From sequence record NC_052659.1: a stretch of DNA of 64,000 nucleotides; one strand, written 5' to 3'. Positions 2,067 through 20,149 of the stretch are shown in pieces. The notes beneath the pieces are model-generated. The model did no database searches and was not told the origin of the DNA. It saw only the letters and a list, made by a program, of their open reading frames with translations. This DNA comes from Escherichia phage nieznany. Numbering within the stretch: position 1 is the first letter of the stretch; the number at the start of each line of letters is the position of its first letter. The translations under genes and the position numbers were made by a program.

Positions 2067-3175
2067 CAAGTCCATTTTTAAAAGCAGCTACTGGCGGTCA
2101 GAAGAAGCCTGAAATGAGCGTATTTGCTGCAACAACAGATGCAAGTAAATCTGTATTCGCTCCAAGCGTGTTAGATGCCAGTCCTGTTTATGCACCAGCG
2201 GCACCGCAAGAAGTTCCAGTTTTGCCTTCTATGACCCGACAAGAGATCGAAGAGATTGGGGCAGAGGCAGGAACAACCTTGCGTTCCTTGAATGCCGAGG
2301 TATTAAAACATCAACGTAGTAATCAAGGCGATCAGATGAGTGAACGACTCACAGCTTTGATTAAACAGGCAAAACAACTTGATCCAAACTCTATTAAACA
2401 AAGCAAGGGTATTACTAAACTCATTAAAAAAGTTATGGGTATGAAAGAAGATCTGTTTGGGGAGTTTGATAATGTTAATAACCGTATTGAAGAGTTGGTA
2501 AAAAACCTTCAAATGGATATTCGCAAAGAAGAAGATTCCTTGGTATATCTTGAAAAGCTACATCAAGCTATTGGACAATATGCTGCAAGTTTGAACCGAG
2601 ATATGCAGCTTCTAACAGCAACCTATGAAAAAGAAGAACAAGCTTTGGCTGCTCTTCCAGAAGATGCAGTAGAACAGCGACAAGTGATCCGAGATACTTT
2701 GGATCTTCTGGAGATTCGTATTGCAGATTTAAAAGCATTGCGCCTACTGTGTGTCCAAATGGGACCGCGTGTACAAGGTATGCAAAAAGTTTCTGCAAGC
2801 TTAATGCGATCTGCGCGTAACATAGTAAATAATGTTATTCCTGCTTACTCTGCTAACTTCTCAATGTATATCGAGAGCTTACGTCAAATGAAAGCAGCAG
2901 AGACGCAGAATAACGTTCTTGATGAATTTAACCTGGCAATTAAACTGGGTAGCGATCTTGCCACACAGAATCAGATCGAAGCAGCAGCACTGGCTAACCG
3001 TCAAGTGTTGGATATTGAAACTCTGCGTCACGATCAGGAAAACTTGGTTAAGATGTTGGAAGAAACTAACCGCATCAATACGGAAGCCCGTGCTGCTCGT
3101 GTTGATTATATTAATGAAGTTCAATCTTTGGAAGACGGGATGGTAGCTGCTGTGAAACGAGGGCTTGGTAAATGA
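2063..3175 (+). CDS. alpha-helical coiled-coil protein, possibly TelA-like (toxic anion resistance family)
   Basis: 370 aa, predicted helical with coiled-coil character; sits upstream of vWA and TerD genes; family assignment is inference only. Confidence 0.35.
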   Translation: MTSPFLKAATGGQKKPEMSVFAATTDASKSVFAPSVLDASPVYAPAAPQEVPVLPSMTRQEIEEIGAEAGTTLRSLNAEVLKHQRSNQGDQMSERLTALIKQAKQLDPNSIKQSKGITKLIKKVMGMKEDLFGEFDNVNNRIEELVKNLQMDIRKEEDSLVYLEKLHQAIGQYAASLNRDMQLLTATYEKEEQALAALPEDAVEQRQVIRDTLDLLEIRIADLKALRLLCVQMGPRVQGMQKVSASLMRSARNIVNNVIPAYSANFSMYIESLRQMKAAETQNNVLDEFNLAIKLGSDLATQNQIEAAALANRQVLDIETLRHDQENLVKMLEETNRINTEARAARVDYINEVQSLEDGMVAAVKRGLGK

Positions 3176-3372
3176 GAATCCGTATCTATATAATTGATGA
3201 GGACATTGGTGTCCGTTATGATGACGAAAAACGATTCGCGCCGATGGGAGGCATATATCCCCCAAGTGTTCTAGCAGTTTGTCGTGATTGTTATATTTAT
3301 GAAGGTTGTCGTAACTTCCGTAAATTCGAACTCCTTGCAGATATTGACTTCAATGAGGAGGAGGAGGAGTAA
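3172..3372 (+). CDS. hypothetical protein
   Basis: ORF overlapping upstream stop by 4 nt (translational coupling); acidic C-terminus. Confidence 0.3.
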   Translation: MRIRIYIIDEDIGVRYDDEKRFAPMGGIYPPSVLAVCRDCYIYEGCRNFRKFELLADIDFNEEEEE

Positions 3373-3545
3373 TGAAAATATTACGAGTGAATATTGAAAC
3401 TGCTTGGTGTGGATGCAATGAGGTTGTGGATATCGAAATTGAAGATGATATGTCTCAAGAGGATATAGAAGATCTTGCACACGAAACCTTTCAGGACTAT
3501 TGTAATTACGGGTTCCATATTTTAGAGGAGGAAGAGGATGTTTAA
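3372..3545 (+). CDS. hypothetical small acidic protein (57 aa)
   Basis: ATG at 3372 preceded by GAGGAGGAGG; below the 60-aa cutoff of the ORF track. Confidence 0.25.
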   Translation: MKILRVNIETAWCGCNEVVDIEIEDDMSQEDIEDLAHETFQDYCNYGFHILEEEEDV

Positions 3546-3741
3546 CTACGATAACGACCCTAATATTATCCAGTTAACCCGACAAGAACTGATCACAATC
3601 ATTGAAGATGCTTTTATTGATGGCTGGAATACACAAGACAATGATTGGGGTGGACCCGAAGCTTTTCTGGAACATCATAAAGCTTATGGAGAATTTTGTG
3701 AAACCACTGTAGCTCTTGATAATCTGAAGGAGGGTTTGTAA
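3538..3741 (+). CDS. hypothetical protein
   Basis: ORF in tight early-gene array. Confidence 0.35.
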   Translation: MFNYDNDPNIIQLTRQELITIIEDAFIDGWNTQDNDWGGPEAFLEHHKAYGEFCETTVALDNLKEGL

Positions 3742-4304
3742 TGGGTTGTTTTAGCTTTTTGTGCAAAGAATCGGGCAAAGCTGCCCTTTCTACTTCTTTC
3801 GACGGATCACCTTGTTATCTCTTTCTTTTGAAGGACGGTGTTGTTATTGAAGAGATGTATGGCAACTATGATAGTTATGGTTGTGTTTTCTCTGGAAAGG
3901 AGGATGAAAATGGCGTTCGTGAACGGTTCGAATGGGCTATGGATTGGGGTAAGGTTTGTGATTTAATGCATTCCTCGAATCCAAGGGATGGTATCGCTAT
4001 GGTGCTGGAAGAGTATTTTACAGGTGAAATCCCTACAGAACAATCTGACGGAGATCCTAACCAAGGTTGGGGTGATGGCGAAGAAGATCCAGATTGTTTT
4101 TTCAGCACAGAAAAGAATAAGTTTAAACGTGTTGACAACCCTTATCACAAAGTGCATAATACTCTCATTGAAACAGAAGATGACAAGATGGAAATTGAAG
4201 AAGATGATCCTCTTGTAACACTTCCTATAAGTGAGTTACAAAAGATCACTAAGGAAGCTTACGATTTGGGCTTCAAAATTGGTAGAGGAGGTATGCGTGT
4301 TTAG
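3741..4304 (+). CDS. hypothetical protein
   Basis: ORF, RBS GGAGGG upstream. Confidence 0.4.
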   Translation: MGCFSFLCKESGKAALSTSFDGSPCYLFLLKDGVVIEEMYGNYDSYGCVFSGKEDENGVRERFEWAMDWGKVCDLMHSSNPRDGIAMVLEEYFTGEIPTEQSDGDPNQGWGDGEEDPDCFFSTEKNKFKRVDNPYHKVHNTLIETEDDKMEIEEDDPLVTLPISELQKITKEAYDLGFKIGRGGMRV

Positions 4305-4575
4305 ATTCAATATTCAAGAAGAAAAAAGTCAGGATTTACCTATTGCTTTCGAAGATCTTGACGTAGGGGCCACATTCATGTATTATGATGCCTATGAAGA
4401 CGCAGGGTTGGATACCTACCGTAACTTGGTGTTCATTAAAAATTCCACAAACAGTGCGATTTGTATTAATGGATCACTAGCACAACGAGGCTATACTCAT
4501 TGCATCCCACCAGATACAAATATGGTGGAAGTAGATTTAGAAGTTACCAATATTACACTTAAGAAGGAGAAATAA
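4297..4575 (+). CDS. small protein, paralog A of duplicated Ter-associated ORF
   Basis: GTG start 6 nt after GAGGAGG; paralogous to 5597..5866 (shared DLDVG.TF, ITLK); directly precedes vWA gene. Confidence 0.45.
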   Translation: MFRFNIQEEKSQDLPIAFEDLDVGATFMYYDAYEDAGLDTYRNLVFIKNSTNSAICINGSLAQRGYTHCIPPDTNMVEVDLEVTNITLKKEK

Positions 4576-11242: not shown

Positions 11243-13021
11243 GTGTCGCACATTATAACTAAATATGGATTTGATGTTGATCTTAGCAAGGAAGGGCATA
11301 CAGGTTGTCCGCGCTGCATGAAAAATGGCAAGGATCGCTCTCGTAATAACCTGATGGTTTATGGATTAGATTCTAATGGAGAGCATAAAGGTGCTAAGTG
11401 CTTTGCGTGTGAATACACTATTCCTAGCGTAGAATGGTTACGAGAAAATGGTGAAGTTTTAGAAGAAGAGGAGGAGATTGTGGGTTCGGAATTTAATAAA
11501 CAGATTCATCGTAAAATTGTTCAAGAAACATCAACCAACCCACGTGGTTATCGAGGCATTAAAGAAAAAGTTTCATCTTTCTATGGTGTTCGTTATGAAT
11601 ACCGTCAGGAAGGGGATCAGATGGTAGTAGAAAGTTGTTTATATCCAACTACTATCGGTAAAGAATTGGTTGGTTTTAAGCGTCGTATTCATCCTAAAGA
11701 TTTCAGTAAACCTATTGGTCAAGTAGGTAAAGATGTAGATCTTTTTGGACAAATTCGTTTTGCAGACCGTTCTCATACTGTGGTAATTACAGGTGGTGAA
11801 CACGATGCTCTGGCAGCTTATCAAATGCTGTCTGAAAACTTGGACAACAAATATGAACTTCCAGCAGTAGTTAGTGGCACAACTGGTGAAACCAGTATGT
11901 ATAAACAAGTTCAGGCACAATACCCTTTCTTTGAAAAATTTAAGAAGATTATTGTTTGCATGGATAATGACAAAGCAGGTAATGAGGCATTTGAAAATAT
12001 TGTTAAGGTGCTGCCTCGTAACAAAGTCTACCGTATGCAGATGGATCTTAAGGATGCCAATCAGTATCTGGAAGAAGGTCGTGCAAAAGATTTCGTAAAA
12101 GCTTTTTGGAGTGCTCGTCTATACACCCCAGCAGGTGTTTATGCTTCTAATGTCTTGTATGAAGCTGCATTAGAATGCTTGGAATCCAAGATGATTACCT
12201 TGCCTCCTTTTATGCGTGTTGCTGCAAATATGCTGGGTGGTGGTTTAGTAGAGGAAGAGATTACAGTCATCCTGGCAAAGACCAGTATCGGTAAAACTTT
12301 GATGGTGAACGAGATCACCAAACATATTATTGTTGCGCACCCAGAACATACCCTAGGTATTCTGTCCTTGGAAGCAACTTATAAGAAATATTCTCGTAAC
12401 CTGTTGTCCTCGTTCCTGCATATTCCTCTACACAGGAAAACACCGGAAGAGAAATTTCAAATCTTGGAAGAGAATAAAGAAAAAATCCTAGATTTTTACG
12501 AAAGAGAAGATGGATCACCACGTTTTTATGTGTGTGATGATCGTGGAGCAGATGTGGAGTCTATCAAAGAAAAAGTTTTGGAGATGATCATCTATTTTGG
12601 AGTAACAATTCTTGTTATCGACCCTTATTCTGATTTGCTTTCTGGTATGGATGTTCAAGCCCAGGAAGAGTTAGCAACATGGTTGAAGCGCATCATGAAA
12701 GAGTATGCTATAACTATTATCGTCATCTCACACGTTAAGAAATCGGCTAATGGTGGCAATGAACACTTAACAGAGGACGATGCAATGGGTAGTAGTTTCT
12801 TGGCTAAAGGTGCTGGTATTACCTTGGCTTTGGAACGAGATAAAGCCGCTGAAGACCCTGTAGAACGCAATACGACTCATTGCTTTATCCTAAAAAACCG
12901 TGAGTTCTCGGAAACTGGTCCGGCAGGGCAGTTTTACTATGACATTAGAACTGCAACTCTGCATGACAAAGAGCAGTATTTCAACAATCCTGCTAATTTG
13001 CCTACGGATAGCAACTACTAA
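11243..13021 (+). CDS. bifunctional DNA primase/helicase (T7 gp4-like)
   Basis: N-terminal Zn finger CPRC...CFAC, TOPRIM-like region, Walker A SIGKT and Walker B ILVIDPY of DnaB-like helicase. Confidence 0.85.
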   Translation: MSHIITKYGFDVDLSKEGHTGCPRCMKNGKDRSRNNLMVYGLDSNGEHKGAKCFACEYTIPSVEWLRENGEVLEEEEEIVGSEFNKQIHRKIVQETSTNPRGYRGIKEKVSSFYGVRYEYRQEGDQMVVESCLYPTTIGKELVGFKRRIHPKDFSKPIGQVGKDVDLFGQIRFADRSHTVVITGGEHDALAAYQMLSENLDNKYELPAVVSGTTGETSMYKQVQAQYPFFEKFKKIIVCMDNDKAGNEAFENIVKVLPRNKVYRMQMDLKDANQYLEEGRAKDFVKAFWSARLYTPAGVYASNVLYEAALECLESKMITLPPFMRVAANMLGGGLVEEEITVILAKTSIGKTLMVNEITKHIIVAHPEHTLGILSLEATYKKYSRNLLSSFLHIPLHRKTPEEKFQILEENKEKILDFYEREDGSPRFYVCDDRGADVESIKEKVLEMIIYFGVTILVIDPYSDLLSGMDVQAQEELATWLKRIMKEYAITIIVISHVKKSANGGNEHLTEDDAMGSSFLAKGAGITLALERDKAAEDPVERNTTHCFILKNREFSETGPAGQFYYDIRTATLHDKEQYFNNPANLPTDSNY

Positions 13022-13040
13022 GGGCTTCGGCCCTTTTATT
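13021..13040 (+). terminator. rho-independent terminator
   Basis: AGGGC-TTCG-GCCCT hairpin followed by TTTTATT. Confidence 0.6.
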
Positions 13041-13051
13041 AAAAATACCTG

Positions 13052-13080
13052 TTGACAACTTTGCGGAAGGGACTTATACT
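13052..13080 (+). promoter_or_regulatory. sigma70-like promoter (TTGACA-17-TATACT)
   Basis: Consensus -35 TTGACA 13052..13057, 17-nt spacer, -10 TATACT 13075..13080; strong RBS and ATG 13114 downstream. Confidence 0.6.
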
Positions 13081-13113
13081 TGTCTCATCAACCAAACAAG
13101 AGGAGAAGTAAAA

Positions 13114-13545
13114 ATGCGTATGACAATCGATCTGAATGCAAAAGTTAAAGCTGCTGGTGCTCTGGGTGCTGGTGTTATTAAACACAAACAAGCGTTGGCA
13201 TTTGCCATCCCACATATGATTGTTGAGGATCATCCTGAAGAGTTTGCTGTAAAAGTTGTTGAGAACAATGTCTCTGTTATTGAACATCTTCCAACTGGAC
13301 GTTCTTACCGTGTTGTTTCTTCTAAAGGTTTCCGTTTCGATGTAAGCCCTTCTTTCACAAAAGGTGCTGGTCGTAGTAAAGTGGGTATTCTTTCTTACAA
13401 ATATTATATCGATAAAGTTGCAGATGGTGTTGCATTCTGTCGTGTAAGTGAAGGTAAAGTAGATATCATCTTTAAAAATACCAAAAACATGGTTATTTCT
13501 GACGATGGTAAAGTTGACCTCACTATTGAGTTCGCTAACAACTAA
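13114..13545 (+). CDS. hypothetical protein (likely highly expressed)
   Basis: Behind near-consensus promoter and strong RBS; no recognisable motif. Confidence 0.5.
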   Translation: MRMTIDLNAKVKAAGALGAGVIKHKQALAFAIPHMIVEDHPEEFAVKVVENNVSVIEHLPTGRSYRVVSSKGFRFDVSPSFTKGAGRSKVGILSYKYYIDKVADGVAFCRVSEGKVDIIFKNTKNMVISDDGKVDLTIEFANN

Positions 13546-13554
13546 GGAGGACTA

Positions 13555-14349
13555 TTGAGCAAGTTGAACACACTTGATCAATATTACACTAACCCCGCTT
13601 ATGCGGGGTTCTTATGTGATAAGATCAAAGAAATTTTTGGAGAGGAAGCTAACTACGTAGAACCATCTGCGGGAGAAGGAGCTTTCTCTTCTTGTTTTAA
13701 AAACATAACTTCTTTTGATATTGATCCTAAGTTTGAAGATTGTATTGAGGCAGATTTTTTAGCTCAATCTGTAGAGTCTGTTGGTAGTGTAACTGCTTTT
13801 GTCGGTAATCCTCCGTTTGGAAAAAATGCTAGTCTTGCCATTAAGTTCTTTAACCATTGTGCTGAAATGTTGGATAACGAAGGTGGTATTTGTTTTATCT
13901 TGCCTCGCACATTTCAAAAAATCTTTTTTGCACACAAACTAAATCCCCACATGCATCTTCTTTACGAAGAAGAATGTCCAAAAGGATCTTTTATTCTTCA
14001 TGGAGAACCTTGGGATGTTCCTTGTGTATTCCAGATATGGACTAAACGCAACGAGAAGCGTTCTCCCGTTGTTTTAGGAGAAAATCGACTATTCGTATTA
14101 GGCAACAGTAAAGACTACGACATAGCCGTTAGGAGAGCGGGAGCAAGTGCAGGTAAAGTGTTATCAGAAGAAGATTCTTTATCTGAAGCATCTACCTATT
14201 TTTTAAAAGCCTTGACTTCTGATCTTAAAACGCGTATCATTGAGGCTTACCCGTTACTTAAAGCTGAAGCTAGTAAAACTGCGGGAGTAAGAAGTTTAAG
14301 TTTAAAAGAACTTCAGTGGGTTCTGGAGAACATTAGAAAGGAGGAATAG
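13555..14349 (+). CDS. putative DNA N6-adenine (or N4-cytosine) methyltransferase
   Basis: SAM-binding EPSAGEGAF followed by catalytic NPPF motif; TTG start after AAGGAGG. Confidence 0.55.
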   Translation: MSKLNTLDQYYTNPAYAGFLCDKIKEIFGEEANYVEPSAGEGAFSSCFKNITSFDIDPKFEDCIEADFLAQSVESVGSVTAFVGNPPFGKNASLAIKFFNHCAEMLDNEGGICFILPRTFQKIFFAHKLNPHMHLLYEEECPKGSFILHGEPWDVPCVFQIWTKRNEKRSPVVLGENRLFVLGNSKDYDIAVRRAGASAGKVLSEEDSLSEASTYFLKALTSDLKTRIIEAYPLLKAEASKTAGVRSLSLKELQWVLENIRKEE

Positions 14350-17300
14350 TGAGTAAGTTTACATGGGATATTGAAGCAAACGGATTGTTGAATAATGACA
14401 CTATTGATTATTTAGCTAGTCCTTATCGTCTCAAAGACACATTTCAAATGCACTGTATTGTCTTAGAGAACCATGAAACAGGAGAAATAGTAGCTTTCCA
14501 CGATGGCCCTAAATACATTTTTGATGGTCGTCCTTATGAAGAGTCAGATGATAAATATACATATGTTCTTAAAGAATATGTGGCGCAAGATTACACACAT
14601 TTTCAACTAAAAGATTTCCCAGATTTTATTAATCATGAAGGTTATTTTAAAGACAAGCCTGAATATTTGGTTGAAATGGCTGTGGCACACAACGGTATCA
14701 ACTATGACTGGTTGGCTACAAAACTGTTTTATGGATTAGATTACAGTGTTAAATATAACACGTGGGGTAAAAGCAAGGTAAAACTTATTGACTCCTTAAT
14801 TTTGAGTAAAGTGTTAAACCCAGATCGAAAGATTGAGGGCAAATCAGGACATAGTTTGGCAGCACTTTCTCGAAAGGCAGGTGGGGATGTAAAAATAGAT
14901 TTCCGTAAAGAGATTCCAGAAGAAGATCGATTTAAGACTTTTGCTGCGGATATGCTTTATTACTGTATCTATGACAACAAAGCCAATACGAGCGTATATA
15001 ATTACCTTATGGAAGAGTGGGGTGATTATGATAAATGGGAAGGTCCATTTGAACTTGAACAACGTGTAGCAGACATTATTACACGCCAGGAACACCGTGG
15101 GTTTGCTTTTAACATGAAGCAAGCAGAAGAGAACCTTGCTTTTTTAGATGCAGAAATGGAGCGTCTTCGTTTACTCGTTGAGCCTATTTTGCCACCTAAA
15201 CCAGCAACAAAAGGTTATCTTAAGGCTTTTATTCCACCTAAGTTGCAAATTAAAAAGAACTTAGAGCCAACTAACCATATGATCAATTTTGCTAAGAAAC
15301 ATGATGGTCATTTGGAAGAGAGGGATGGAGATTGGTGGTTAGTGATGTTGGGGAAAGAGTGGAAACTGCCAGTTGCAGCAGATGAGCCTTTGTGTGATCC
15401 TAATATCCCTGCAACATTGAACGATACAACCCATATTAAAAACTGGCTTGTAGGATTAGGTTGGGTACCATCGGAATATAAAGATAAAGATTTGACTCTT
15501 AAATCTGGCACCAAGATTAAAAAGAGTGAGGAAGAACTTCAGAAAGGTATTCGAGCTTACGTTGAGCAAACTCTATCTTCTAATTTTTGTCAAGACCGTT
15601 GTGATCATCTGGAGTGCACACCGGAAACCTTGGAAAGGAAGATTCAAGAGCGTATAGCAAAAGGTAAAGGTCGAGGTCTTAAAGTATTGACTAACCCATG
15701 TTTTACCAAAGGTCAGGAAAAAGAAATCTGTCCTAACCTGCAAGCTTTGGGTGAGAAATTTCCTTATGCTACACAGATTGTAGAATACTTAACGTATAAA
15801 CACCGTAGGAACTCTATTTTAGGTGGTGGTGCCGATTGGGAAGAAGACGAAGAAGATCAAGAATACAACAAAGGTTTCTTGGCAGCAGTTCGTGCAGATG
15901 GACGTATACCTACGCCAGCGGCTACATGCGATGCAGCAACCTCTCGTATGAAGCATAGGTCTGTAGCCAATATTCCTCGTGTTACCTCTTTGTTTGGATG
16001 GCAGATGCGTAACCTGTTTGGTGTAGAGGTTCCTAAATACTTCCAGATTGGTTATGACTTTGATTCATTAGAGGCGAAGATTGAGTCGCATTATACGTGG
16101 AGATATGATAATCCTGATCATGCTTACTGTAATGCACTTCTGTTAGAAAAACCAAACGATGTGCATACTATGATGGCAAAACATATTACTGATATTATTG
16201 GACGTAAGTTTGAACGTGGTCCTGCTAAGAGCGTTAAATACGGTTGTGTACCTGTAGATAATACGGAAGTGTTAACAAGAACGGGTTGGAAGAAACGTAA
16301 AGATCTTTTTGTAGGGGATGAAGTTTTATCTTATAATACTCACACCGCTCTTTACGAATATACCCCTATTCTTAAGCTGTGGGACTATAACGATGCAGAA
16401 GTTGTCTCTCTCGGTAACAAGTGGTTCAAAGTAGAAGTTACTAACGATCATATGTGGATTAACGCACAGAGAAAAACTATGCGATCAGATGGTAACAATG
16501 TTAAGTATATGCAAGTGGAGCGTAGATCTACAGAGGATTTAAACTCGGAGTCAAACATAATTGCAGCAGGGCGATCTGGTGTGGTGTCTACTCTAACAGT
16601 GGAAGAAGGTCGTTTCTTAGGCTGGCTTCTTTCGGATGGCTACTATAAGTGGTCTGGCAAAGCCAGAAATAAAGTAATGGGTATTACAGTCACGGTAGAT
16701 CAAGATGAGAAAAAATTCTTAGAAGAAGCACGTGAGGCTGTGGGAGATATCTTCACATTTGACGAGTATGTATCTGGAACGATGCATTCATTACGTCCTA
16801 ATAAGAGTCAGTTTAGGGAATTTTTGACTAAATGTGGCGTTGAAGTGGGTCAAAATAAGCACGAAGTGGACTGGTCTACATTAATTGCTAATCAAGGTCA
16901 AGCTGTGTTGGAAGCATTCTTAGAGGCATTCTGGATGGCAGATGGTCATAAGCGTCCAAACGGCAGTCTTGTTATCCGTCAAAAGAAAGGTAAGATTAGC
17001 GACGCTGTTTCTTTGGCTATCAATATGACAGGTAATATTGCGTATGGTTCTGTTCAAAAAGATGGCATGTTAACGTTGGCAATCAATAACGGACAAACTA
17101 TTTCAGGACAGAGGTTGACAAAAGCTTTTTCACGAGTAACAGATGTATTCTGTATCTCAACCAAGAATGAATCTTTTGTTATGCGTCAGAATGGTTTTAT
17201 CACGTTGACAGGTAACTGCACGTACGGCGCTCAAGCAGACAAGGTTGCTAAAACAATTGGTAGCGATAAATACACAGGGCAACTGGTGTTCGATGCTTTC

Positions 17301-17918
17301 TGGGAAGCTGCATTCCCACTGGCGCGTCTTAAAGAACGTTTAAACGATTTCTGGGTTAAGACTGGTAAACAGTATGTTTTGGGTATTGACGGTCGTAAGG
17401 TTCCTACTCGTTCTGCTCACGCGATTCTTAACTCTCTGTTCCAAAGTGGTGGGGTTATCTGTGCTAAACGTGCAATGGTTATTTATGACGACATGATCGA
17501 AGAAGAAGGGCTAAGTGTTGACTTCTTTAAAGATGACTGGAAGAATAAAGACTTCGTGCAACAAATGATTGCATATCACGATGAAGCCCAGCTTGAAGTT
17601 TCTCGTAACCTTGTAGAATTTAAATGGTTTTCACCTGAATCATTAGGTTGGAAGAAAGTAGACGATCCTGAAGAACAAAAGAAAATTGATAAAGAATGCC
17701 TTGCTAAAGTTGAAGAATGGAAGCATAATAAGGAAAAAGAGACAGGGCAAATTTGGGCTAACATTCATGAATCTCCCAAAGGTGGATGGTTTACAGCCTA
17801 TAGTCGGGCAGGTGAACTTGCTGCTTTAGCTGTTACTAAGGCTGGAGAATTTTACAATCTTAATGTTCAGCTTACTGCCGGATATGATGTGGGTAACTCC
17901 TGGGCGAGCTGCCATTAG
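14349..17918 (+). CDS. family A DNA polymerase with 3'-5' exonuclease domain, interrupted by an intein
   Basis: Exo I DIEANGL; motif A GYDFDSLEAK; motif B RGPAKSVKYG|intein|CTYGAQADK (compare T7 RDNAKTFIYGFLYGAG); motif C YHDE. Confidence 0.9.
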   Translation: MSKFTWDIEANGLLNNDTIDYLASPYRLKDTFQMHCIVLENHETGEIVAFHDGPKYIFDGRPYEESDDKYTYVLKEYVAQDYTHFQLKDFPDFINHEGYFKDKPEYLVEMAVAHNGINYDWLATKLFYGLDYSVKYNTWGKSKVKLIDSLILSKVLNPDRKIEGKSGHSLAALSRKAGGDVKIDFRKEIPEEDRFKTFAADMLYYCIYDNKANTSVYNYLMEEWGDYDKWEGPFELEQRVADIITRQEHRGFAFNMKQAEENLAFLDAEMERLRLLVEPILPPKPATKGYLKAFIPPKLQIKKNLEPTNHMINFAKKHDGHLEERDGDWWLVMLGKEWKLPVAADEPLCDPNIPATLNDTTHIKNWLVGLGWVPSEYKDKDLTLKSGTKIKKSEEELQKGIRAYVEQTLSSNFCQDRCDHLECTPETLERKIQERIAKGKGRGLKVLTNPCFTKGQEKEICPNLQALGEKFPYATQIVEYLTYKHRRNSILGGGADWEEDEEDQEYNKGFLAAVRADGRIPTPAATCDAATSRMKHRSVANIPRVTSLFGWQMRNLFGVEVPKYFQIGYDFDSLEAKIESHYTWRYDNPDHAYCNALLLEKPNDVHTMMAKHITDIIGRKFERGPAKSVKYGCVPVDNTEVLTRTGWKKRKDLFVGDEVLSYNTHTALYEYTPILKLWDYNDAEVVSLGNKWFKVEVTNDHMWINAQRKTMRSDGNNVKYMQVERRSTEDLNSESNIIAAGRSGVVSTLTVEEGRFLGWLLSDGYYKWSGKARNKVMGITVTVDQDEKKFLEEAREAVGDIFTFDEYVSGTMHSLRPNKSQFREFLTKCGVEVGQNKHEVDWSTLIANQGQAVLEAFLEAFWMADGHKRPNGSLVIRQKKGKISDAVSLAINMTGNIAYGSVQKDGMLTLAINNGQTISGQRLTKAFSRVTDVFCISTKNESFVMRQNGFITLTGNCTYGAQADKVAKTIGSDKYTGQLVFDAFWEAAFPLARLKERLNDFWVKTGKQYVLGIDGRKVPTRSAHAILNSLFQSGGVICAKRAMVIYDDMIEEEGLSVDFFKDDWKNKDFVQQMIAYHDEAQLEVSRNLVEFKWFSPESLGWKKVDDPEEQKKIDKECLAKVEEWKHNKEKETGQIWANIHESPKGGWFTAYSRAGELAALAVTKAGEFYNLNVQLTAGYDVGNSWASCH
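16245..17216 (+). mobile_element. intein (324 aa) with LAGLIDADG homing endonuclease, inserted in polymerase motif B
   Basis: Starts with Cys after KYG; ends ...FITLTGN before Cys+1; LAGLIDADG-like LGWLLSDGYY and LEAFWMADGH; excision restores motif B. Confidence 0.7.
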
Positions 17919-17947
17919 TCTAACATGTTGTTTATTAAGGAGGTTTT

Positions 17948-18526
17948 ATGGTTTATGATCATGGTGTTTTTGATGGAGATATTACCGTAAGATCTCCTGA
18001 AGGAGTTATGCATCCTGCTTATATGAAATGGATGGCTATGTTGGGGAGGTGTTACTCCCCTTGCCAGCAGGTAAGAGATGTTGCCTACCACGGTGTTACG
18101 GTTTGTGATGATTGGAAGTTATTCTCTAACTTCTATTCTTGGTTACAAACTTGGGACAACTGGGAAAAATTAGAACTTGACAAGGATCTTATAGGAGGGG
18201 GCGTTTACTCCCCTGCTTCTTGCTTGATGATTTCTGGAAACCTTAATAAGTTCTTAGCTTATAGGAAGAAGACGGGGCAAATGGTAGGTTGTAATTACGA
18301 AAAGGATCGCAAGAAATATAAGGCCCATATAAAAGTAGACGGTCGTATTATAACACTCGGACGTTTTGATACTGAACTTGAGGCACATCTTTGTTGGTTG
18401 AAAGCTAAAGCAGAACAACTCACAAAGTTTTTTGAAATAGAAGACAAGAGAGTTGTTCCTTATCTTAAAGCATTGTATAATGAAATGCTTGAGCACGTAG
18501 AACAACACAAAGAGTGGACACGATAG
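17948..18526 (+). CDS. AP2-domain DNA-binding protein, putative homing-endonuclease-like
   Basis: C-terminal YKAHIKVDGRIITLGRFDTELEAHLCW matches AP2 domain; N-terminal Y..W..M..RC motif common in phage HNH-AP2 proteins; no clear HNH catalytic motif seen. Confidence 0.5.
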   Translation: MVYDHGVFDGDITVRSPEGVMHPAYMKWMAMLGRCYSPCQQVRDVAYHGVTVCDDWKLFSNFYSWLQTWDNWEKLELDKDLIGGGVYSPASCLMISGNLNKFLAYRKKTGQMVGCNYEKDRKKYKAHIKVDGRIITLGRFDTELEAHLCWLKAKAEQLTKFFEIEDKRVVPYLKALYNEMLEHVEQHKEWTR

Positions 18527-18729
18527 GAGGAGATATGAGTTACGATTTAGATTACTTTGGACAGCCTTACCTGCCAGACGAATTCGCAGATGAGGCGGAG
18601 GGTCGTGAATGGGATGATGGGGATATCCGTTGTTGGTCTTGTGGTAAAGATATGTCCTATGAACAACATATGCACAATGATGGTTTCTGCATACATTGTT
18701 ATAATGAAATTGATCTGGAGGAAGATTAA
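18514..18729 (+). CDS. small zinc-ribbon protein
   Basis: CWSCG...CIHC pairs. Confidence 0.35.
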   Translation: MDTIGGDMSYDLDYFGQPYLPDEFADEAEGREWDDGDIRCWSCGKDMSYEQHMHNDGFCIHCYNEIDLEED

Positions 18730-18896
18730 TGGGAAATGGTATCATGATTTGCTATAAAATTGTGCGTATTGTCGGAGACGAAGTTACCACTCGGTATTTT
18801 ATGATAGAGTCTCAAGCCGATGAGGTTTACAATGACTGGCTTGAAAAAGGTGGATACGATTTTGTATCTAAAGAAACTTTCCGTTTAGAAGTATAA
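18729..18896 (+). CDS. hypothetical small protein (55 aa)
   Basis: TAATG overlap with upstream stop; below ORF-track cutoff. Confidence 0.2.
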   Translation: MGNGIMICYKIVRIVGDEVTTRYFMIESQADEVYNDWLEKGGYDFVSKETFRLEV

Positions 18897-18906
18897 GGAG
18901 AAAACA

Positions 18907-19125
18907 ATGCGTAAATTAGTGAGCTTTAATGTTTCAATTCTTGTTGATGAACAAAATGAAGATGTTATTAAAGGTCTTGCAAATAAGATTGCAGGTGGAA
19001 TGACGGAAGCTGAAGTGTGGGAAGAATGTGCTCGACTTTATGAGGAAGGTGTTATTGAGGTCTTGGGGGATGAGATTAATATGGACGATGTTGTAAAAGT
19101 AACTGTGGAGCGTATCAATGACTAA
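18907..19125 (+). CDS. hypothetical protein
   Basis: RBS AAGGAG upstream. Confidence 0.4.
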   Translation: MRKLVSFNVSILVDEQNEDVIKGLANKIAGGMTEAEVWEECARLYEEGVIEVLGDEINMDDVVKVTVERIND

Positions 19126-19711
19126 ATCAAAACAAATCAATATTGCCAAAGAAATTCTTACCGTATTAAAGATCGCTGATCCTAATTCTGTCTTGGCTGG
19201 CGGTGCTGTTCGTGATTGGCGTATTCTTGATATTGCTGGACGTGATCTGGATTTCTATACATCCCTTCCTGCACATCGGACTGAAGAACAAATACAAGGA
19301 TTAATTGCATCTGCTTTAATGGGAACCAATATTCGTAAACTAGGAAACAAAGAGGCTTCTGACAATTATGAAGGTGTTACTGGTCTTAAACACGTTTTTG
19401 AGTTTGAACGTGATGGTCAGCTTTGCAACCTTATGATTATGGAACCAAGCGTAATGACAACCTTTCTAAATGAGTTCGATCTGTCCATCTGCCAGGCTGC
19501 ATTTGATGGGAAGGACTGTTATTATTCTAAAGATTTTGAAACAACCTTGGAAACAGGGATCTGCTTCTTGCACAAAGATGTTAGAGAAGATGCCAAACAT
19601 GTTATTAAAATTGCTACACGTTTCCCATATCTTCGTTTTGTGAAAGAGGTTAAGGTTCCACGTCCACCTCAAGTAGATACCAGATTGGAAGAAGATGATA
19701 TTCCTTGGTAA
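19118..19711 (+). CDS. nucleotidyltransferase-fold protein, possible tRNA nucleotidyltransferase (CCA-adding) head domain
   Basis: LAGGAVRDW...DIAGRDLD resembles GG.VRD...D.D of Pol-beta-like tRNA nucleotidyltransferases. Confidence 0.4.
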   Translation: MTKSKQINIAKEILTVLKIADPNSVLAGGAVRDWRILDIAGRDLDFYTSLPAHRTEEQIQGLIASALMGTNIRKLGNKEASDNYEGVTGLKHVFEFERDGQLCNLMIMEPSVMTTFLNEFDLSICQAAFDGKDCYYSKDFETTLETGICFLHKDVREDAKHVIKIATRFPYLRFVKEVKVPRPPQVDTRLEEDDIPW

Positions 19712-19718
19712 TTAAAGC

Positions 19719-19748
19719 TTGACAATATTAAACATTTTATGATAGGAT
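19719..19748 (+). promoter_or_regulatory. sigma70-like promoter (TTGACA-18-TAGGAT)
   Basis: TTGACA 19719..19724 and TAGGAT 19743..19748; same ATG-TAGGAT-type -10 context as the minus-strand tRNA promoters; ATG 19757 only 8 nt downstream. Confidence 0.35.
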
Positions 19749-19756
19749 AGCATTCA

Positions 19757-20149
19757 ATGACTGAACGTTCTAAGATAGCTGTTGAAACTGTTTATGGAAA
19801 CTATACCAGTTTGACACTAGTTGAGAAAAATGTTGTAGGTCTTGACAACTCTTTTTATTTTCAAATTTTGGTTATTCAAGGTGGAAACAAGAAGCTAACT
19901 GCTCGTGTCGAAACATCTGAAATAATTGAAACCACTGTTACAAACAAAGAATTCATTTCACTGCAAGATACAATCCGAAACGTTATAGACGAAGAAGGCA
20001 AAGCTGCCACAATTAAACTCGGAGGTTTCCCAGTGCAAATAGTTCATTTTCCTAATGGTGAAATTGGAGTTGGAATAGGTAAAGGTAAATACCTGTTAGA
20101 GCAAGATGATATGGAAAGACTCCGCTCTTTCTGTGCAAAATTAATGTAA
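19757..20149 (+). CDS. hypothetical protein
   Basis: ORF; possibly leaderless given promoter position. Confidence 0.4.
   Translation: MTERSKIAVETVYGNYTSLTLVEKNVVGLDNSFYFQILVIQGGNKKLTARVETSEIIETTVTNKEFISLQDTIRNVIDEEGKAATIKLGGFPVQIVHFPNGEIGVGIGKGKYLLEQDDMERLRSFCAKLM

What the first reader, a model, noticed from the sequence alone, without database searches (positions are those of the whole stretch)
16245..17216. Intein with LAGLIDADG homing endonuclease inserted in motif B of the family A DNA polymerase
The polymerase reads ...RGPAKSVKYG then Cys, 324 aa, ...FITLTGN, then CTYGAQADKVAKTIG. Removing the insert joins KYG to CTYG and recreates the conserved pol A motif B (compare T7 RDNAKTFIYGFLYGAG). 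The insert begins with a nucleophilic Cys, ends with Asn before Cys+1, and contains two LAGLIDADG-like blocks. Insertion in an essential catalytic motif is the classic intein signature; the terminal His-Asn is replaced by Gly-Asn.
Basis: partly seen in the sequence, partly recalled or inferred. Interest (0 to 1): 0.75.

Follow-up and report, generated by a model that had tools for sequence, protein, structure and literature searches.

The report
Mobile intein inside phage DNA polymerase
A 324-residue self-splicing, self-spreading insert (an intein with a homing endonuclease) interrupts the nucleotide-binding helix of this E. coli phage's DNA polymerase. It is a real but unannotated member of a known kind, notable for a very recent jump between phage genera and for combining the usual first-residue cysteine with the cysteine triad of 'class 3' inteins.

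Summary
Window 16245-17216 (972 nt) is an in-frame 324-aa insert, Cys1...Thr-Gly-Asn|Cys+1, in the family A polymerase ORF 14349-17918.

Sister phages (ESCO13, phAPEC8 and others) carry the same gene exactly 972 nt shorter. The spliced sequence aligns without a gap to T7 DNA polymerase, which places the insert between T7 G527 and F528 in the O-helix (motif B).

An AlphaFold model matches intein-homing endonucleases (TliVMA, PI-SceI, PI-PkoII). Both LAGLIDADG aspartates are present.

The element is recently mobile. A 1,220-nt cassette (228 nt of 5' extein, the intein, and 20 nt of 3' extein) is 99.9% identical in phiWec187, a phage of another genus whose polymerase is otherwise about 77% identical.

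- Empty alleles have Ile, not Cys, at +1, so homing leaves an I->C scar.
- The intein belongs to a very large polymerase-borne family (6,629 cluster representatives). In the 147 best in-frame members, Cys1 almost always co-occurs with the class-3 Trp/Cys/Thr triad and a penultimate Gly.

The closest tested relative is the mycobacteriophage Bethlehem RDF intein, which splices fast and depends on that Gly.

Verdict: a genuine, active intein and a new member of a known kind. The initiating nucleophile is unresolved.

The parts
14349..16244 (+). N-extein of the family A DNA polymerase: 3'-5' exonuclease region, motif A (DFDSLE, 16056-16073) and the first half of motif B (RGPAKSVKYG, 16215-16244)
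   Evidence: Aligns to T7 DNA polymerase residues 440-527.
16245..17216 (+). Intein, 324 aa, from Cys1 (TGT) to Asn324 (AAC)
   Evidence: The 972 nt are precisely absent from ESCO13 and phAPEC8 alleles.
16245..16289 (+). Block A (CVPVDNTEVLTRTGW) with the nucleophile Cys1
   Evidence: Cys1 is present in 146 of 147 family representatives; the exception is a truncated fragment.
16428..16469 (+). Block B (KVEVTNDHMWINAQ): Thr66 (B:7), His69 (B:10), Trp71 (B:12)
   Evidence: Aligned to S62/H65/W67 of the Bethlehem class 3 prototype by BLASTP and by hhalign. Counts in the family: T 147/147, H 147/147, W 146/147.
16611..16646 (+). First LAGLIDADG motif (RFLGWLLSDGYY); presumptive catalytic Asp131 at 16635-16637
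16914..16949 (+). Second LAGLIDADG motif (AFLEAFWMADGH); presumptive catalytic Asp233 at 16941-16943
   Evidence: A-D-G is invariant in alignment A1.
17136..17189 (+). Block F (VTDVFCISTKNESFVMRQ) with Cys303 (17151-17153) at position F:4, where class 1 inteins usually have Asp
   Evidence: The distance from Cys303 to Asn324 is 21 residues, the same as C320 to N341 in the Bethlehem class 3 intein.
17193..17216 (+). Block G (GFITLTGN): Thr322 (G:5), Gly323 (G:6, in place of His), Asn324 (G:7)
17217..17918 (+). C-extein. Begins with Cys+1 (TGC; Ile/ATC in empty alleles), then TYGAQ (rest of motif B), motif C (YHDEAQ, 17574-17591) and the stop codon
16017..17236 (+). Co-converted cassette shared with phiWec187: 228 nt of 5' extein, the intein and 20 nt of 3' extein. 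1,219 of 1,220 nt are identical; the one mismatch is at 17122
   Evidence: Background identity between the two polymerase genes is about 77%. The same tract is the most divergent part of the gene when each phage is compared with the intein-free allele of its own genus.

Best explanation
The insert is a functional, recently mobile intein with an in-frame LAGLIDADG homing endonuclease. It lies in the O-helix (motif B) of the phage's family A DNA polymerase, between the residues equivalent to T7 G527 and F528.

Protein level (inferred): the 1189-aa precursor cannot be an active polymerase because the dNTP-binding helix is split. The HINT domain therefore excises itself and ligates ...KSVKYG to CTYGAQ.... 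The most likely chemistry is the class 1 route:
1. N-S acyl shift at Cys1, assisted by Thr66 and His69.
2. Transfer of the N-extein to Cys+1.
3. Cyclisation of Asn324 without a penultimate His.
4. S-N shift that restores the peptide bond.
The invariant Cys303 occupies the place of the usual block F Asp.

DNA level: the endonuclease cuts intein-free polA alleles during co-infection. Repair then copies the intein together with flanking extein sequence. The co-conversion footprint of such repair is shown here. This repair also installs the Cys+1 codon in place of the native Ile codon.
For: Shown:
- Exact boundaries Cys1...Asn324|Cys+1.
- Precise 972-nt presence/absence polymorphism among phages whose polymerase genes are otherwise about 95% identical.
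- The spliced product aligns without a gap to T7 DNA polymerase across the junction, E 5e-17. It also restores a contiguous Pfam DNA_pol_A match above the gathering score.
- The AF2 model (pLDDT 80.8, pTM 0.82) matches the TliVMA, PI-SceI, PI-PfuI and PI-PkoII intein-endonucleases, E 9e-15 to 2e-7.
- The splicing-domain profile hits solved inteins: Spl DnaX 5.6e-7, AceL NrdHF 6e-5.
- Across 147 divergent family members the invariant residues are the catalytic ones: C1, T B:7, H B:10, W B:12, C F:4, N G:7.
- A 1,220-nt cassette is 99.9% identical between two genera against about 77% background, with co-conversion tracts.
- The distribution is sporadic: 10 of 126 related phage records carry it.
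- The family HMM aligns end to end (72.7 bits) with the Bethlehem RDF intein, which also has C1, Cys at F:4 and T-G-N. That intein splices completely in E. coli, has a toxic (hence active) endonuclease, and is slowed by Gly->His (Kelley 2016, PMC5050341).

Inferred:
- The carrier phages nepoznato and ukendt are plaque-forming isolates on E. coli K-12, so the polymerase must mature.
Against: - No experiment on this intein exists.
- Curated intein models do not reach significance: Pfam Hint E 0.09, LAGLIDADG_3 E 2e-3 and below its cut-off, and no NCBIfam intein model.
- A profile of blocks F-G alone finds no solved intein by sequence.
- The canonical penultimate His and the block F Asp are both missing.
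- The complete class-3 WCT triad is present in register, so the nucleophile that opens the N-terminal junction cannot be assigned from sequence.
- Endonuclease activity is inferred from motif integrity and from the transfer footprint. It has not been assayed.
Confidence: 0.87

Rival explanations
1. The element is an intein as described, but the chemistry is class-3-like or a relay. Cys303 (F:4) would be an obligate branch nucleophile. It would either attack the N-terminal junction directly or receive the N-extein from the Cys1 thioester before passing it to Cys+1. Trp71 and Thr322 would play the roles they have in class 3 inteins.
For: - Trp71, Cys303 and Thr322 fall exactly on B:12, F:4 and G:5, using the numbering of Tori 2010 (PMC2807308).
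- BLASTP aligns T66/H69/W71 with S62/H65/W67 of the experimentally defined Bethlehem class 3 intein.
- The Cys-to-Asn spacing is 21 residues in both inteins.
- Profile-profile alignment of this family against 84 class 3 inteins gives probability 98%, E 8e-14. Cys aligns with Cys in local mode; in forced global mode T-G-N also aligns with T-H-N.
- Conservation in the family: all 147 scored members have Cys at F:4 (that was the criterion for scoring them), the four Gln-terminal variants have it too, and no in-frame member lacks it; W 146/147; T 139/147.
- Among mini-inteins, the best structural hit is the class 3 AceL NrdHF intein.
Against: - Cys1 is conserved in 146/147 members and Thr B:7 in 147/147. 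Class 3 inteins have Ala, Gly or Pro at position 1 and Asp or Ser at B:7. B:7 is also dispensable in the class 3 prototype. That pattern argues that the class 1 first step is under selection in this family.
- The nearest tested relative, the Bethlehem RDF intein, is treated as class 1 and scores far higher against the family HMM than the class 3 prototype does (72.7 against 25.7 bits).
- The canonical class 3 structures (Msm and Mch DnaB) are not among the profile hits.
- About half of the family has Cys+1, which is rare in class 3.
Confidence: 0.22
2. The intein still splices but its endonuclease is dead. The element would then be inherited only vertically or moved by general recombination.
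For: - Many family members have lost half of the endonuclease. Examples are the 245-261-aa forms with a single LAGLIDADG motif: P0006, P0007 and the phi92/PaulScherrer intein.
- No cleavage assay exists.
Against: - Both LAGLIDADG motifs and both acidic residues are intact.
- The intein is 971/972 nt identical in two genera whose exteins are 75-79% identical.
- Co-conversion tracts abut both splice sites.
- The endonuclease of the related Bethlehem RDF intein is toxic in E. coli.
Confidence: 0.08
3. The insert is a lineage-specific domain that stays in the mature polymerase, or a splicing-dead relic.
For: Only the absence of direct splicing data and the weak scores against curated intein HMMs.
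Against: - It splits the O-helix between the equivalents of T7 Y526/G527 and F528/Y530.
- The fold is HINT plus LAGLIDADG.
- All catalytic positions are under strong conservation.
- The carrier phages are viable isolates.
Confidence: 0.02
4. The interruption is removed at the RNA level, as a group I intron carrying a homing endonuclease gene, rather than at the protein level.
For: A related Vibrio phage has a group I intron at the same motif B position.
Against: - The reading frame is continuous through both junctions.
- No Rfam family matches window 13000-20000.
- The insert encodes a HINT domain whose terminal residues are exactly those needed for protein splicing.
Confidence: 0.01

Closest known systems
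Mycobacteriophage Bethlehem RDF (gp51; gp52 in AY500153) intein, studied by Kelley et al. 2016 (PMC5050341)
   Same: - End-to-end match to the family HMM (72.7 bits).
- Cys1, T..H in block B, Cys at F:4 (EVWCLRV), C-terminal L-T-G-N, and an in-frame LAGLIDADG endonuclease of similar size (317 against 324 aa).
- Shown to splice completely in E. coli, and to depend on the penultimate Gly.
   Different: - The host protein is a phosphoesterase/RDF, not a polymerase.
- It has Val rather than Trp at B:12 and Ser at +1.
- It comes from an actinobacteriophage.
- The role of its F:4 Cys is not mentioned in the passages of that paper I read.
The 245-aa intein of phi92, ESCO5 and PaulScherrer (Stephanstirmvirinae) polymerases, annotated 'intein-containing DNA polymerase precursor' in MZ501100 (BASEL collection) and in SD2
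   Same: - Same phage subfamily and same polymerase gene.
- Same intein family: 263 bits against the family HMM and 32% identity to the window intein.
- Same C1/T-H-W/C/T-G-N|C signature.
   Different: - It is inserted about 50 codons upstream, at ...KIESHY|CWRY just after motif A.
- It has only one LAGLIDADG motif.
- No phage record carries both inteins.
- At that site the window reads HYTWRY, with no intein.
Class 3 inteins (prototype: mycobacteriophage Bethlehem 'DnaB' intein, found here in gp11; Tori et al. 2010)
   Same: Trp B:12, Cys F:4 and Thr G:5 are in register, the Cys-to-Asn spacing is the same, the origin is phage, and the endonuclease is LAGLIDADG.
   Different: - This intein has Cys1, whereas class 3 has Ala, Gly or Pro.
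- It has Thr at B:7, whereas class 3 has Asp or Ser.
- It has Gly at G:6, whereas class 3 has His.
- It has Cys+1, whereas class 3 has Ser or Thr.
- Hoffmann et al. 2020 define class 3 as having no N-terminal Cys, which excludes this group.
Solved intein-homing endonucleases: PI-SceI, TliVMA/PhoVMA, PI-PfuI, PI-PkoII
   Same: Two-domain HINT plus LAGLIDADG architecture. Foldseek E 9e-15 to 2e-7, TM about 0.6. phmmer hit to the PI-PkoII endonuclease domain.
   Different: - Sequence identity is only 8-16%.
- Those proteins have the canonical His-Asn terminus.
- Their hosts are archaeal or yeast proteins (VMA, RIR1, family B polymerase).
Group I intron in motif B of Vibrio phage VnaP polA, with a free-standing HINT-LAGLIDADG gene downstream
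   Same: The same O-helix coding site is the target. The neighbouring free-standing protein is a homologue of this intein family.
   Different: - Removal is at the RNA level (Rfam RF00028, 85 bits).
- The HINT-like protein lacks Cys1, the block B Thr and His, the F:4 Cys and the terminal Asn, so it cannot splice.

Membership tests
Intein (HINT protein-splicing domain) | In-frame insertion whose removal restores a conserved host protein, shown by the existence of an empty allele | tested here: met
   Alleles exactly 972 nt shorter occur in ESCO13 and phAPEC8. The spliced sequence aligns without a gap to T7 polymerase. The Pfam DNA_pol_A match becomes contiguous.
Intein (HINT protein-splicing domain) | Junction residues: Cys/Ser at position 1, C-terminal Asn (or Gln/Asp), Cys/Ser/Thr at +1 | tested here: met
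   Cys1, Asn324 and Cys+1. Conserved across the family.
Intein (HINT protein-splicing domain) | Block B T-x-x-H | tested here: met
   T66-N-D-H69. Both residues are present in 147/147 family members.
Intein (HINT protein-splicing domain) | HINT fold | tested here: met
   AF2 model at pLDDT 80.8. Foldseek hits to solved inteins. Profile hits to Spl DnaX, AceL NrdHF, NrdJ-1, gp41-1 and Mtu RecA inteins.
Intein (HINT protein-splicing domain) | Penultimate His (block G:6) | tested here: not met
   Gly323. This feature is frequent but not defining. Inteins without it splice (Chen, Benner & Perler 2000, seen only as a reference-list entry; Kelley 2016). 145 of 147 relatives have Gly.
Intein (HINT protein-splicing domain) | Protein splicing actually occurs | not testable with these tools
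   Inferred from the viability of the carrier phages and from the tested Bethlehem RDF relative.
LAGLIDADG homing endonuclease (intein-borne, monomeric, two-motif) | Two LAGLIDADG helices, each ending in an acidic residue | tested here: met
   LLSD131G and MAD233G. PI-PkoII alignment E 1.2e-3. Foldseek hits to I-DmoI and I-SceI. Pfam LAGLIDADG_3 is below its cut-off at 18.6 against 22.5 bits.
LAGLIDADG homing endonuclease (intein-borne, monomeric, two-motif) | Homing: site-specific spread with co-conversion of flanks | tested here: met
   A 1,220-nt cassette is 99.9% identical between genera, with 228-nt and 20-nt extein tracts. Cleavage itself was not tested.
Class 1 inteins | N-terminal Cys/Ser/Thr that forms the linear (thio)ester | tested here: inconclusive
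   Cys1 is present and near-invariant, with Thr B:7 and His B:10. Its use as the nucleophile cannot be shown by sequence.
Class 3 inteins | WCT triplet: Trp B:12, Cys F:4, Thr G:5 | tested here: met
   W71, C303 and T322 are in register with W67, C320 and T339 of the prototype.
Class 3 inteins | No N-terminal nucleophile (operational definition of Tori 2010 and Hoffmann 2020) | tested here: not met
   Cys1 is present. The class 3 set gathered here has Ala, Gly or Pro at position 1 in 82 of 85 sequences.
Class 3 inteins | Obligate block F Cys nucleophile and block F branched intermediate | not testable with these tools
   Needs C303A and C1A mutants and a thiol-lability assay.
Family A DNA polymerase (host protein) | Motifs A, B and C in order, with homology to T7 and Pol I | tested here: met
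   The T7 alignment, E 5e-17, covers DxSxLE, RxxxKxxxYGxxYG and HDE. Pfam PF00476 scores 50.9 bits for the spliced form.

The most novel reading that the evidence does not exclude
This intein represents a very large phage polymerase-borne family: 6,629 cluster representatives at E<=1e-3. In the 147 best in-frame members, a class 1 N-terminal Cys (with Thr B:7) almost always co-occurs with the complete class 3 Trp/Cys/Thr triad and a penultimate Gly.

If Cys303 is catalytic, as a relay or a redundant nucleophile, the family would be the natural 'two-nucleophile' state. [quoted passage not shown] Its apparent absence led Beyer et al. 2020 (PMC7664689) to argue that class 3 could not have diverged from class 1.
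Probability: 0.2. Interest if true: 0.65.

Novelty: new member of a known kind. Interest (0 to 1): 0.4.

Why it matters
1. Annotation. All ten public records that carry this element call the gene 'DNA polymerase I' or 'hypothetical protein', or carry no annotation there. The mature polymerase is 865 aa, not 1189 aa. These records include phages of a group considered for therapy.

2. Mobility. The 1.2-kb cassette shared by Phapecoctavirus and Justusliebigvirus is a clean natural example of intein homing with co-conversion between phage genera. It also rewrites a catalytic-helix residue (Ile to Cys).

3. Surveys. Motif B of polA is used as a marker in virome studies. At least three kinds of selfish element target this site, counting two intein insertion points and a group I intron. 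These can break ORF- or amplicon-based surveys.

4. Mechanism and tools. The family offers thousands of natural variants with Cys1, WCT and Gly-Asn. Its closest tested relative, the Bethlehem RDF intein, splices fast. Simple point mutants could settle whether block F Cys chemistry exists outside 'nucleophile-less' inteins.

Tried and rejected
- Curated HMM libraries were nearly blind to the insert. Pfam gave Hint E 0.09 and LAGLIDADG_3 below its cut-off, and NCBIfam gave no intein model. I therefore did not use them as evidence either way.
- A profile of blocks F-G alone against PDB sequences found nothing meaningful. The F:4 assignment rests instead on the profile-profile alignment and on the spacing.
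- I could not read Tori & Perler 2011 (PMC3133030) or Brace 2010 (PMC2923505); neither is held. The supplement of Tori 2010 that lists the three WCT inteins with Ser1 or Cys1 is also not held. Whether such inteins were shown to use the class 3 route is therefore left open. My recollection that they were is unverified.
- I looked for the Bethlehem 'DnaB' intein in the annotated DnaB-like gene gp62. That gene is too short. The intein is in gp11, and I identified it from the published primer-encoded flanks VSQDQ|P...N|TKNTF.
- A group I intron reading of the window insert was rejected: the frame is continuous and there is no Rfam hit.
- A claim that the family is phylogenetically nested in or sister to class 3 was not made. 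I had no class 1 profile of comparable depth as a control. The class 3 profile also matches the class 1 gp41-1 intein well (E 2.7e-12).
They serve only as rough controls.
Full report
**Source of the window.** The polymerase gene is 99.2% identical to that of Escherichia phage nepoznato (Phapecoctavirus, Stephanstirmvirinae) and 98.6% identical to that of phage ukendt. The ORF 14349..17918 (+) encodes 1189 aa. It lies between a DNA adenine methyltransferase gene and small ORFs, as it does in nepoznato, where it is annotated simply 'DNA polymerase I'.

**Observation.** The finding's coordinates are exact.
- TGT (Cys) at 16245 follows ...RGPAKSVKYG.
- AAC (Asn) at 17214-17216 ends ...GFITLTGN.
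- TGC (Cys) at 17217 opens CTYGAQADKVAKTIG.
- The insert is 972 nt = 324 aa.
- It contains two LAGLIDADG blocks: RFLGWLLSDGYY (aa 123-134) and AFLEAFWMADGH (aa 224-235).
- The penultimate residue is Gly.

**The insert is a discrete element.**
- Of 126 phage records that match the gene, only 10 cover it in one piece.
- Most of the others (ESCO13, phAPEC8, tuntematon, SF1-1 and more) match in two pieces covering 72-73% of the query. Their gene is 2598 nt, which is exactly 3570 minus 972.
- The alignment shows the gap at the predicted boundaries.
- The empty allele reads KYG|ITYGAQ, with ATC (Ile) where the occupied allele has TGC (Cys). The +1 nucleophile therefore arrives with the element, and the spliced polymerase will carry an Ile->Cys change.

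**The insert lies in motif B.**
- The extein-only sequence aligns to T7 DNA polymerase (1skr, 2ajq; E 5e-17) without a gap at the junction: rgpaKsvkYG|CtYGA against R518-D-N-A-K522-T-F-I-Y526-G527|F528-L-Y530-G-A.
- By established knowledge of family A polymerases (not tested here), this is the O-helix. T7 Y526 corresponds to E. coli Pol I F762, and T7 Y530 to Y766.
- Pfam DNA_pol_A scores 30.9 bits for the precursor, below the 34.3-bit cut-off, and the match stops at the insert.
- For the spliced sequence it scores 50.9 bits and is contiguous over residues 503-764.
- A precursor with a 37-kDa domain inside this helix is very unlikely to polymerise; this is an inference.

**The insert is an intein with a homing endonuclease.**
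- Curated HMMs are almost blind to it, which probably explains the missing annotation.
- phmmer finds the endonuclease domain of PI-PkoII at E 1.2e-3.
- An AlphaFold2 model built on eight homologues has pLDDT 80.8 and pTM 0.82.
- Foldseek matches that model to TliVMA (E 9e-15, TM 0.66), PI-SceI, PhoVMA, PI-PfuI and PI-PkoII. It then matches mini-inteins and I-DmoI or I-SceI for the two halves.
- A profile of the splicing domain alone hits the Spl DnaX (5.6e-7), AceL NrdHF (6e-5), NrdJ-1, gp41-1 and Mtu RecA inteins and BIL domains.

**The element is recently mobile.**
- phiWec187, a Justusliebigvirus, carries the same intein with 971 of 972 nt identical. Its N- and C-exteins are only 75.5% and 78.6% identical to the window.
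- The sliding comparison shows the two genes identical from 16017 to 17236, with one mismatch at 17122, against about 77% elsewhere in the gene.
- Over the same tract (16028-16232 and 17217-17231), each phage becomes unusually different from the intein-free allele of its own genus. Identity falls to 57-88% against mostly 90-100% in the flanking gene (lowest 80% in one upstream stretch).
- This is the footprint expected from double-strand-break repair homing: 228 nt of co-conversion on the 5' side and about 20 nt on the 3' side. The donor appears to have been a third lineage.
- Both LAGLIDADG aspartates (D131, D233) are intact.

**The family.**
- An exhaustive profile search finds 6,629 cluster representatives at E<=1e-3 and 345 at E<=1e-30.
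- Of the best roughly 170 proteins, 147 are in-frame inserts. Nearly all sit in polymerase motif B (R...K...Y[AG]|C.YG.G), at several adjacent micro-sites.
- Their signature is strikingly uniform:

| Position | Residue | Count |
|---|---|---|
| 1 | Cys | 146/147 (the exception is a truncated fragment) |
| B:7 | Thr | 147/147 |
| B:10 | His | 147/147 |
| B:12 | Trp | 146/147 |
| F:4 | Cys | 147/147 (a selection criterion; no in-frame member lacks it) |
| G:5 | Thr | 139/147 |
| G:6 | Gly | 145/147 |
| G:7 | Asn | 147/147 (a selection criterion; four further members end in Gln) |
| +1 | Cys / Thr / Ser | 70 / 45 / 32 |

- Other Stephanstirmvirinae (phi92, ESCO5, PaulScherrer, SD2 and others) carry a different 245-aa member of the same family at another site, ...KIESHY|C...ITGN|CWRY, just after motif A.
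- That intein is annotated as such only in the BASEL phage PaulScherrer and in SD2.
- No record has both inteins.

**Relation to the mechanistic classes.**
- In the numbering of Tori et al. 2010 (PMC2807308), block G:5 is the antepenultimate residue. Trp71, Cys303 and Thr322 are therefore the class 3 'WCT' triplet.
- I recovered the experimentally defined class 3 prototype from mycobacteriophage Bethlehem gp11. Residues P1, S62, H65, W67, C320, T339, H340 and N341 all match the paper.
- BLASTP aligns T66/H69/W71 with S62/H65/W67.
- The Cys-to-Asn distance is 21 residues in both, which puts T322 on T339 and G323 on H340.
- hhalign of this family against 84 class 3 inteins gives probability 98%, E 8e-14. 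Cys aligns with Cys in local mode, and T-G-N aligns with T-H-N in global mode.
- Class 3 inteins differ in having Ala, Gly or Pro at position 1, Asp or Ser at B:7, His at G:6 and Ser or Thr at +1. Hoffmann et al. 2020 define the class by the absence of an N-terminal Cys.
- The family HMM matches end to end (72.7 bits) the other Bethlehem intein, in the RDF/phosphoesterase. That intein has C1, T..H, EVWCLRV and HLTGN|S. The class 3 prototype scores 25.7 bits.
- Kelley et al. 2016 treated the RDF intein as class 1. They showed that it splices to completion in E. coli, that its endonuclease is toxic, and that Gly316->His slows splicing to hours.

**Conclusion on mechanism.**
- The conserved Cys1/Thr B:7/His B:10 set argues that splicing starts with the class 1 acyl shift. 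I estimate this at about 0.55-0.6 of the total.
- Cys303 then replaces the usual Asp in coordinating the steps.
- A class-3-like or relay role for Cys303 remains open, at about 0.2.
- The penultimate Gly is a family trait and very likely beneficial, not a lesion.

**Comparison and novelty.**
- Inteins with LAGLIDADG endonucleases in phage replication genes are well known.
- A sister intein in the same gene of the same phage subfamily is already annotated.
- WCT inteins beginning with Cys or Ser were noted in 2010.
- This is therefore a new, unannotated member of a known kind.
- What is worth keeping is the clean inter-genus homing footprint, the Ile->Cys scar in the O-helix, and the size and uniformity of the Cys1+WCT+Gly family. 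That family makes the class 1 to class 3 question directly testable.

**Limits.**
- No splicing or cleavage experiment exists for this element.
- Tori & Perler 2011 could not be read.
- The phylogenetic position relative to class 3 was not resolved, because I had no class 1 profile as a control.

Noticed in passing
window 17948-18526 (+): A 192-aa ORF lies immediately downstream of the polymerase stop codon. It is absent from nepoznato at this position. It occurs sporadically, at 82-87% identity, in SF1-1, UP17, iGC_PHA_EC001 and others, where it is annotated 'HNH endonuclease' in some records. It is probably a free-standing homing endonuclease gene next to the invaded polymerase. Pfam gives no significant hit.
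   Followed up: partly
window 16089-16100 (polymerase residues SHY|TWRY; junction at 16094|16095): This is the insertion site of the other Stephanstirmvirinae polymerase intein (HY|C...N|CWRY in phi92 and PaulScherrer). The window and phiWec187 read HYTWRYDNPDHAY here, whereas ESCO13 reads HYCWRYEPEPHEY. The change lies inside the tract co-converted with the motif B intein, so acquiring one intein rewrote the homing site of the other. No phage record carries both inteins.
   Followed up: partly
L008 (Vibrio phage VnaP, ON212104) 2151-2371, 2745-2965 and 3474-4544: The VnaP polymerase is annotated as fragments 'II/III/IV'. Rfam finds two group I introns, at 85 and 61 bits. The first interrupts motif B (...GKGITYG / YGAAAPKIA), at essentially the position used by the inteins. 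Directly downstream lies a free-standing 356-aa HINT-LAGLIDADG gene. It is homologous to this intein family but lacks Cys1, the block B Thr and His, the F:4 Cys and the terminal Asn. The layout resembles intron plus free-standing endonuclease 'collaborative homing'.
   Followed up: partly
P0004, P0005, P0008, P0010, P0012-P0018 (e.g. Vibrio phage 249E41-1 VP249E411_P0099): These are a clade of free-standing proteins of about 350 aa that keep the whole intein architecture, including Trp B:12. Their splicing residues are degenerate: G..Q.W in block B, Asp or Ser at F:4, and a C-terminus of ...ITCSS. They look like homing endonucleases derived from inteins, or the reverse.
   Followed up: partly
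phage records MG065639, MG065645, MG065656, MG065689 ('Campylobacter phage A150/A145/C3/A110a'): These unannotated records, labelled as Campylobacter jejuni phages, are about 146-kb genomes. Their polymerase gene is 86% identical to the window over 85% of the query, like that of the Justusliebigvirus phiWec187, and in the three listed the intein is 99.7% identical at protein level. The host label looks doubtful.
   Followed up: no
L004 (phage PaulScherrer, MZ501100) 2504-3238: The annotated 'intein' mat_peptide starts at Val and ends at Cys (VPMD...ITGNC). It is shifted by one residue from the chemically required Cys1...Asn (locus 2501-3235). The spliced product is the same because Cys flanks both ends.
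   Followed up: yes
family members P0006, P0007, P0040, P0065, P0073-P0079 and others; P0108, P0110, P0125, P0131: Many family members are 243-261 aa long with only the second LAGLIDADG motif, so they have half an endonuclease. Four representatives end in Ser-Gly-Gln instead of Thr-Gly-Asn, giving a C-terminal Gln variant. Insertion points vary by one to a few residues within motif B.
   Followed up: no
L005 (mycobacteriophage Bethlehem, AY500153) gp52, and L007 gp11: The published 'MP-Be DnaB' class 3 intein lies in gp11, a 903-aa 'hypothetical protein' next to the portal gene. From its position and from the Bethlehem TerL intein in Kelley et al. 2016, gp11 is probably the large terminase; I did not test this. 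It is not in the annotated DnaB-like helicase gp62. The RDF intein of the same phage carries Cys at block F:4 and T-G-N although it is treated as class 1.
   Followed up: partly
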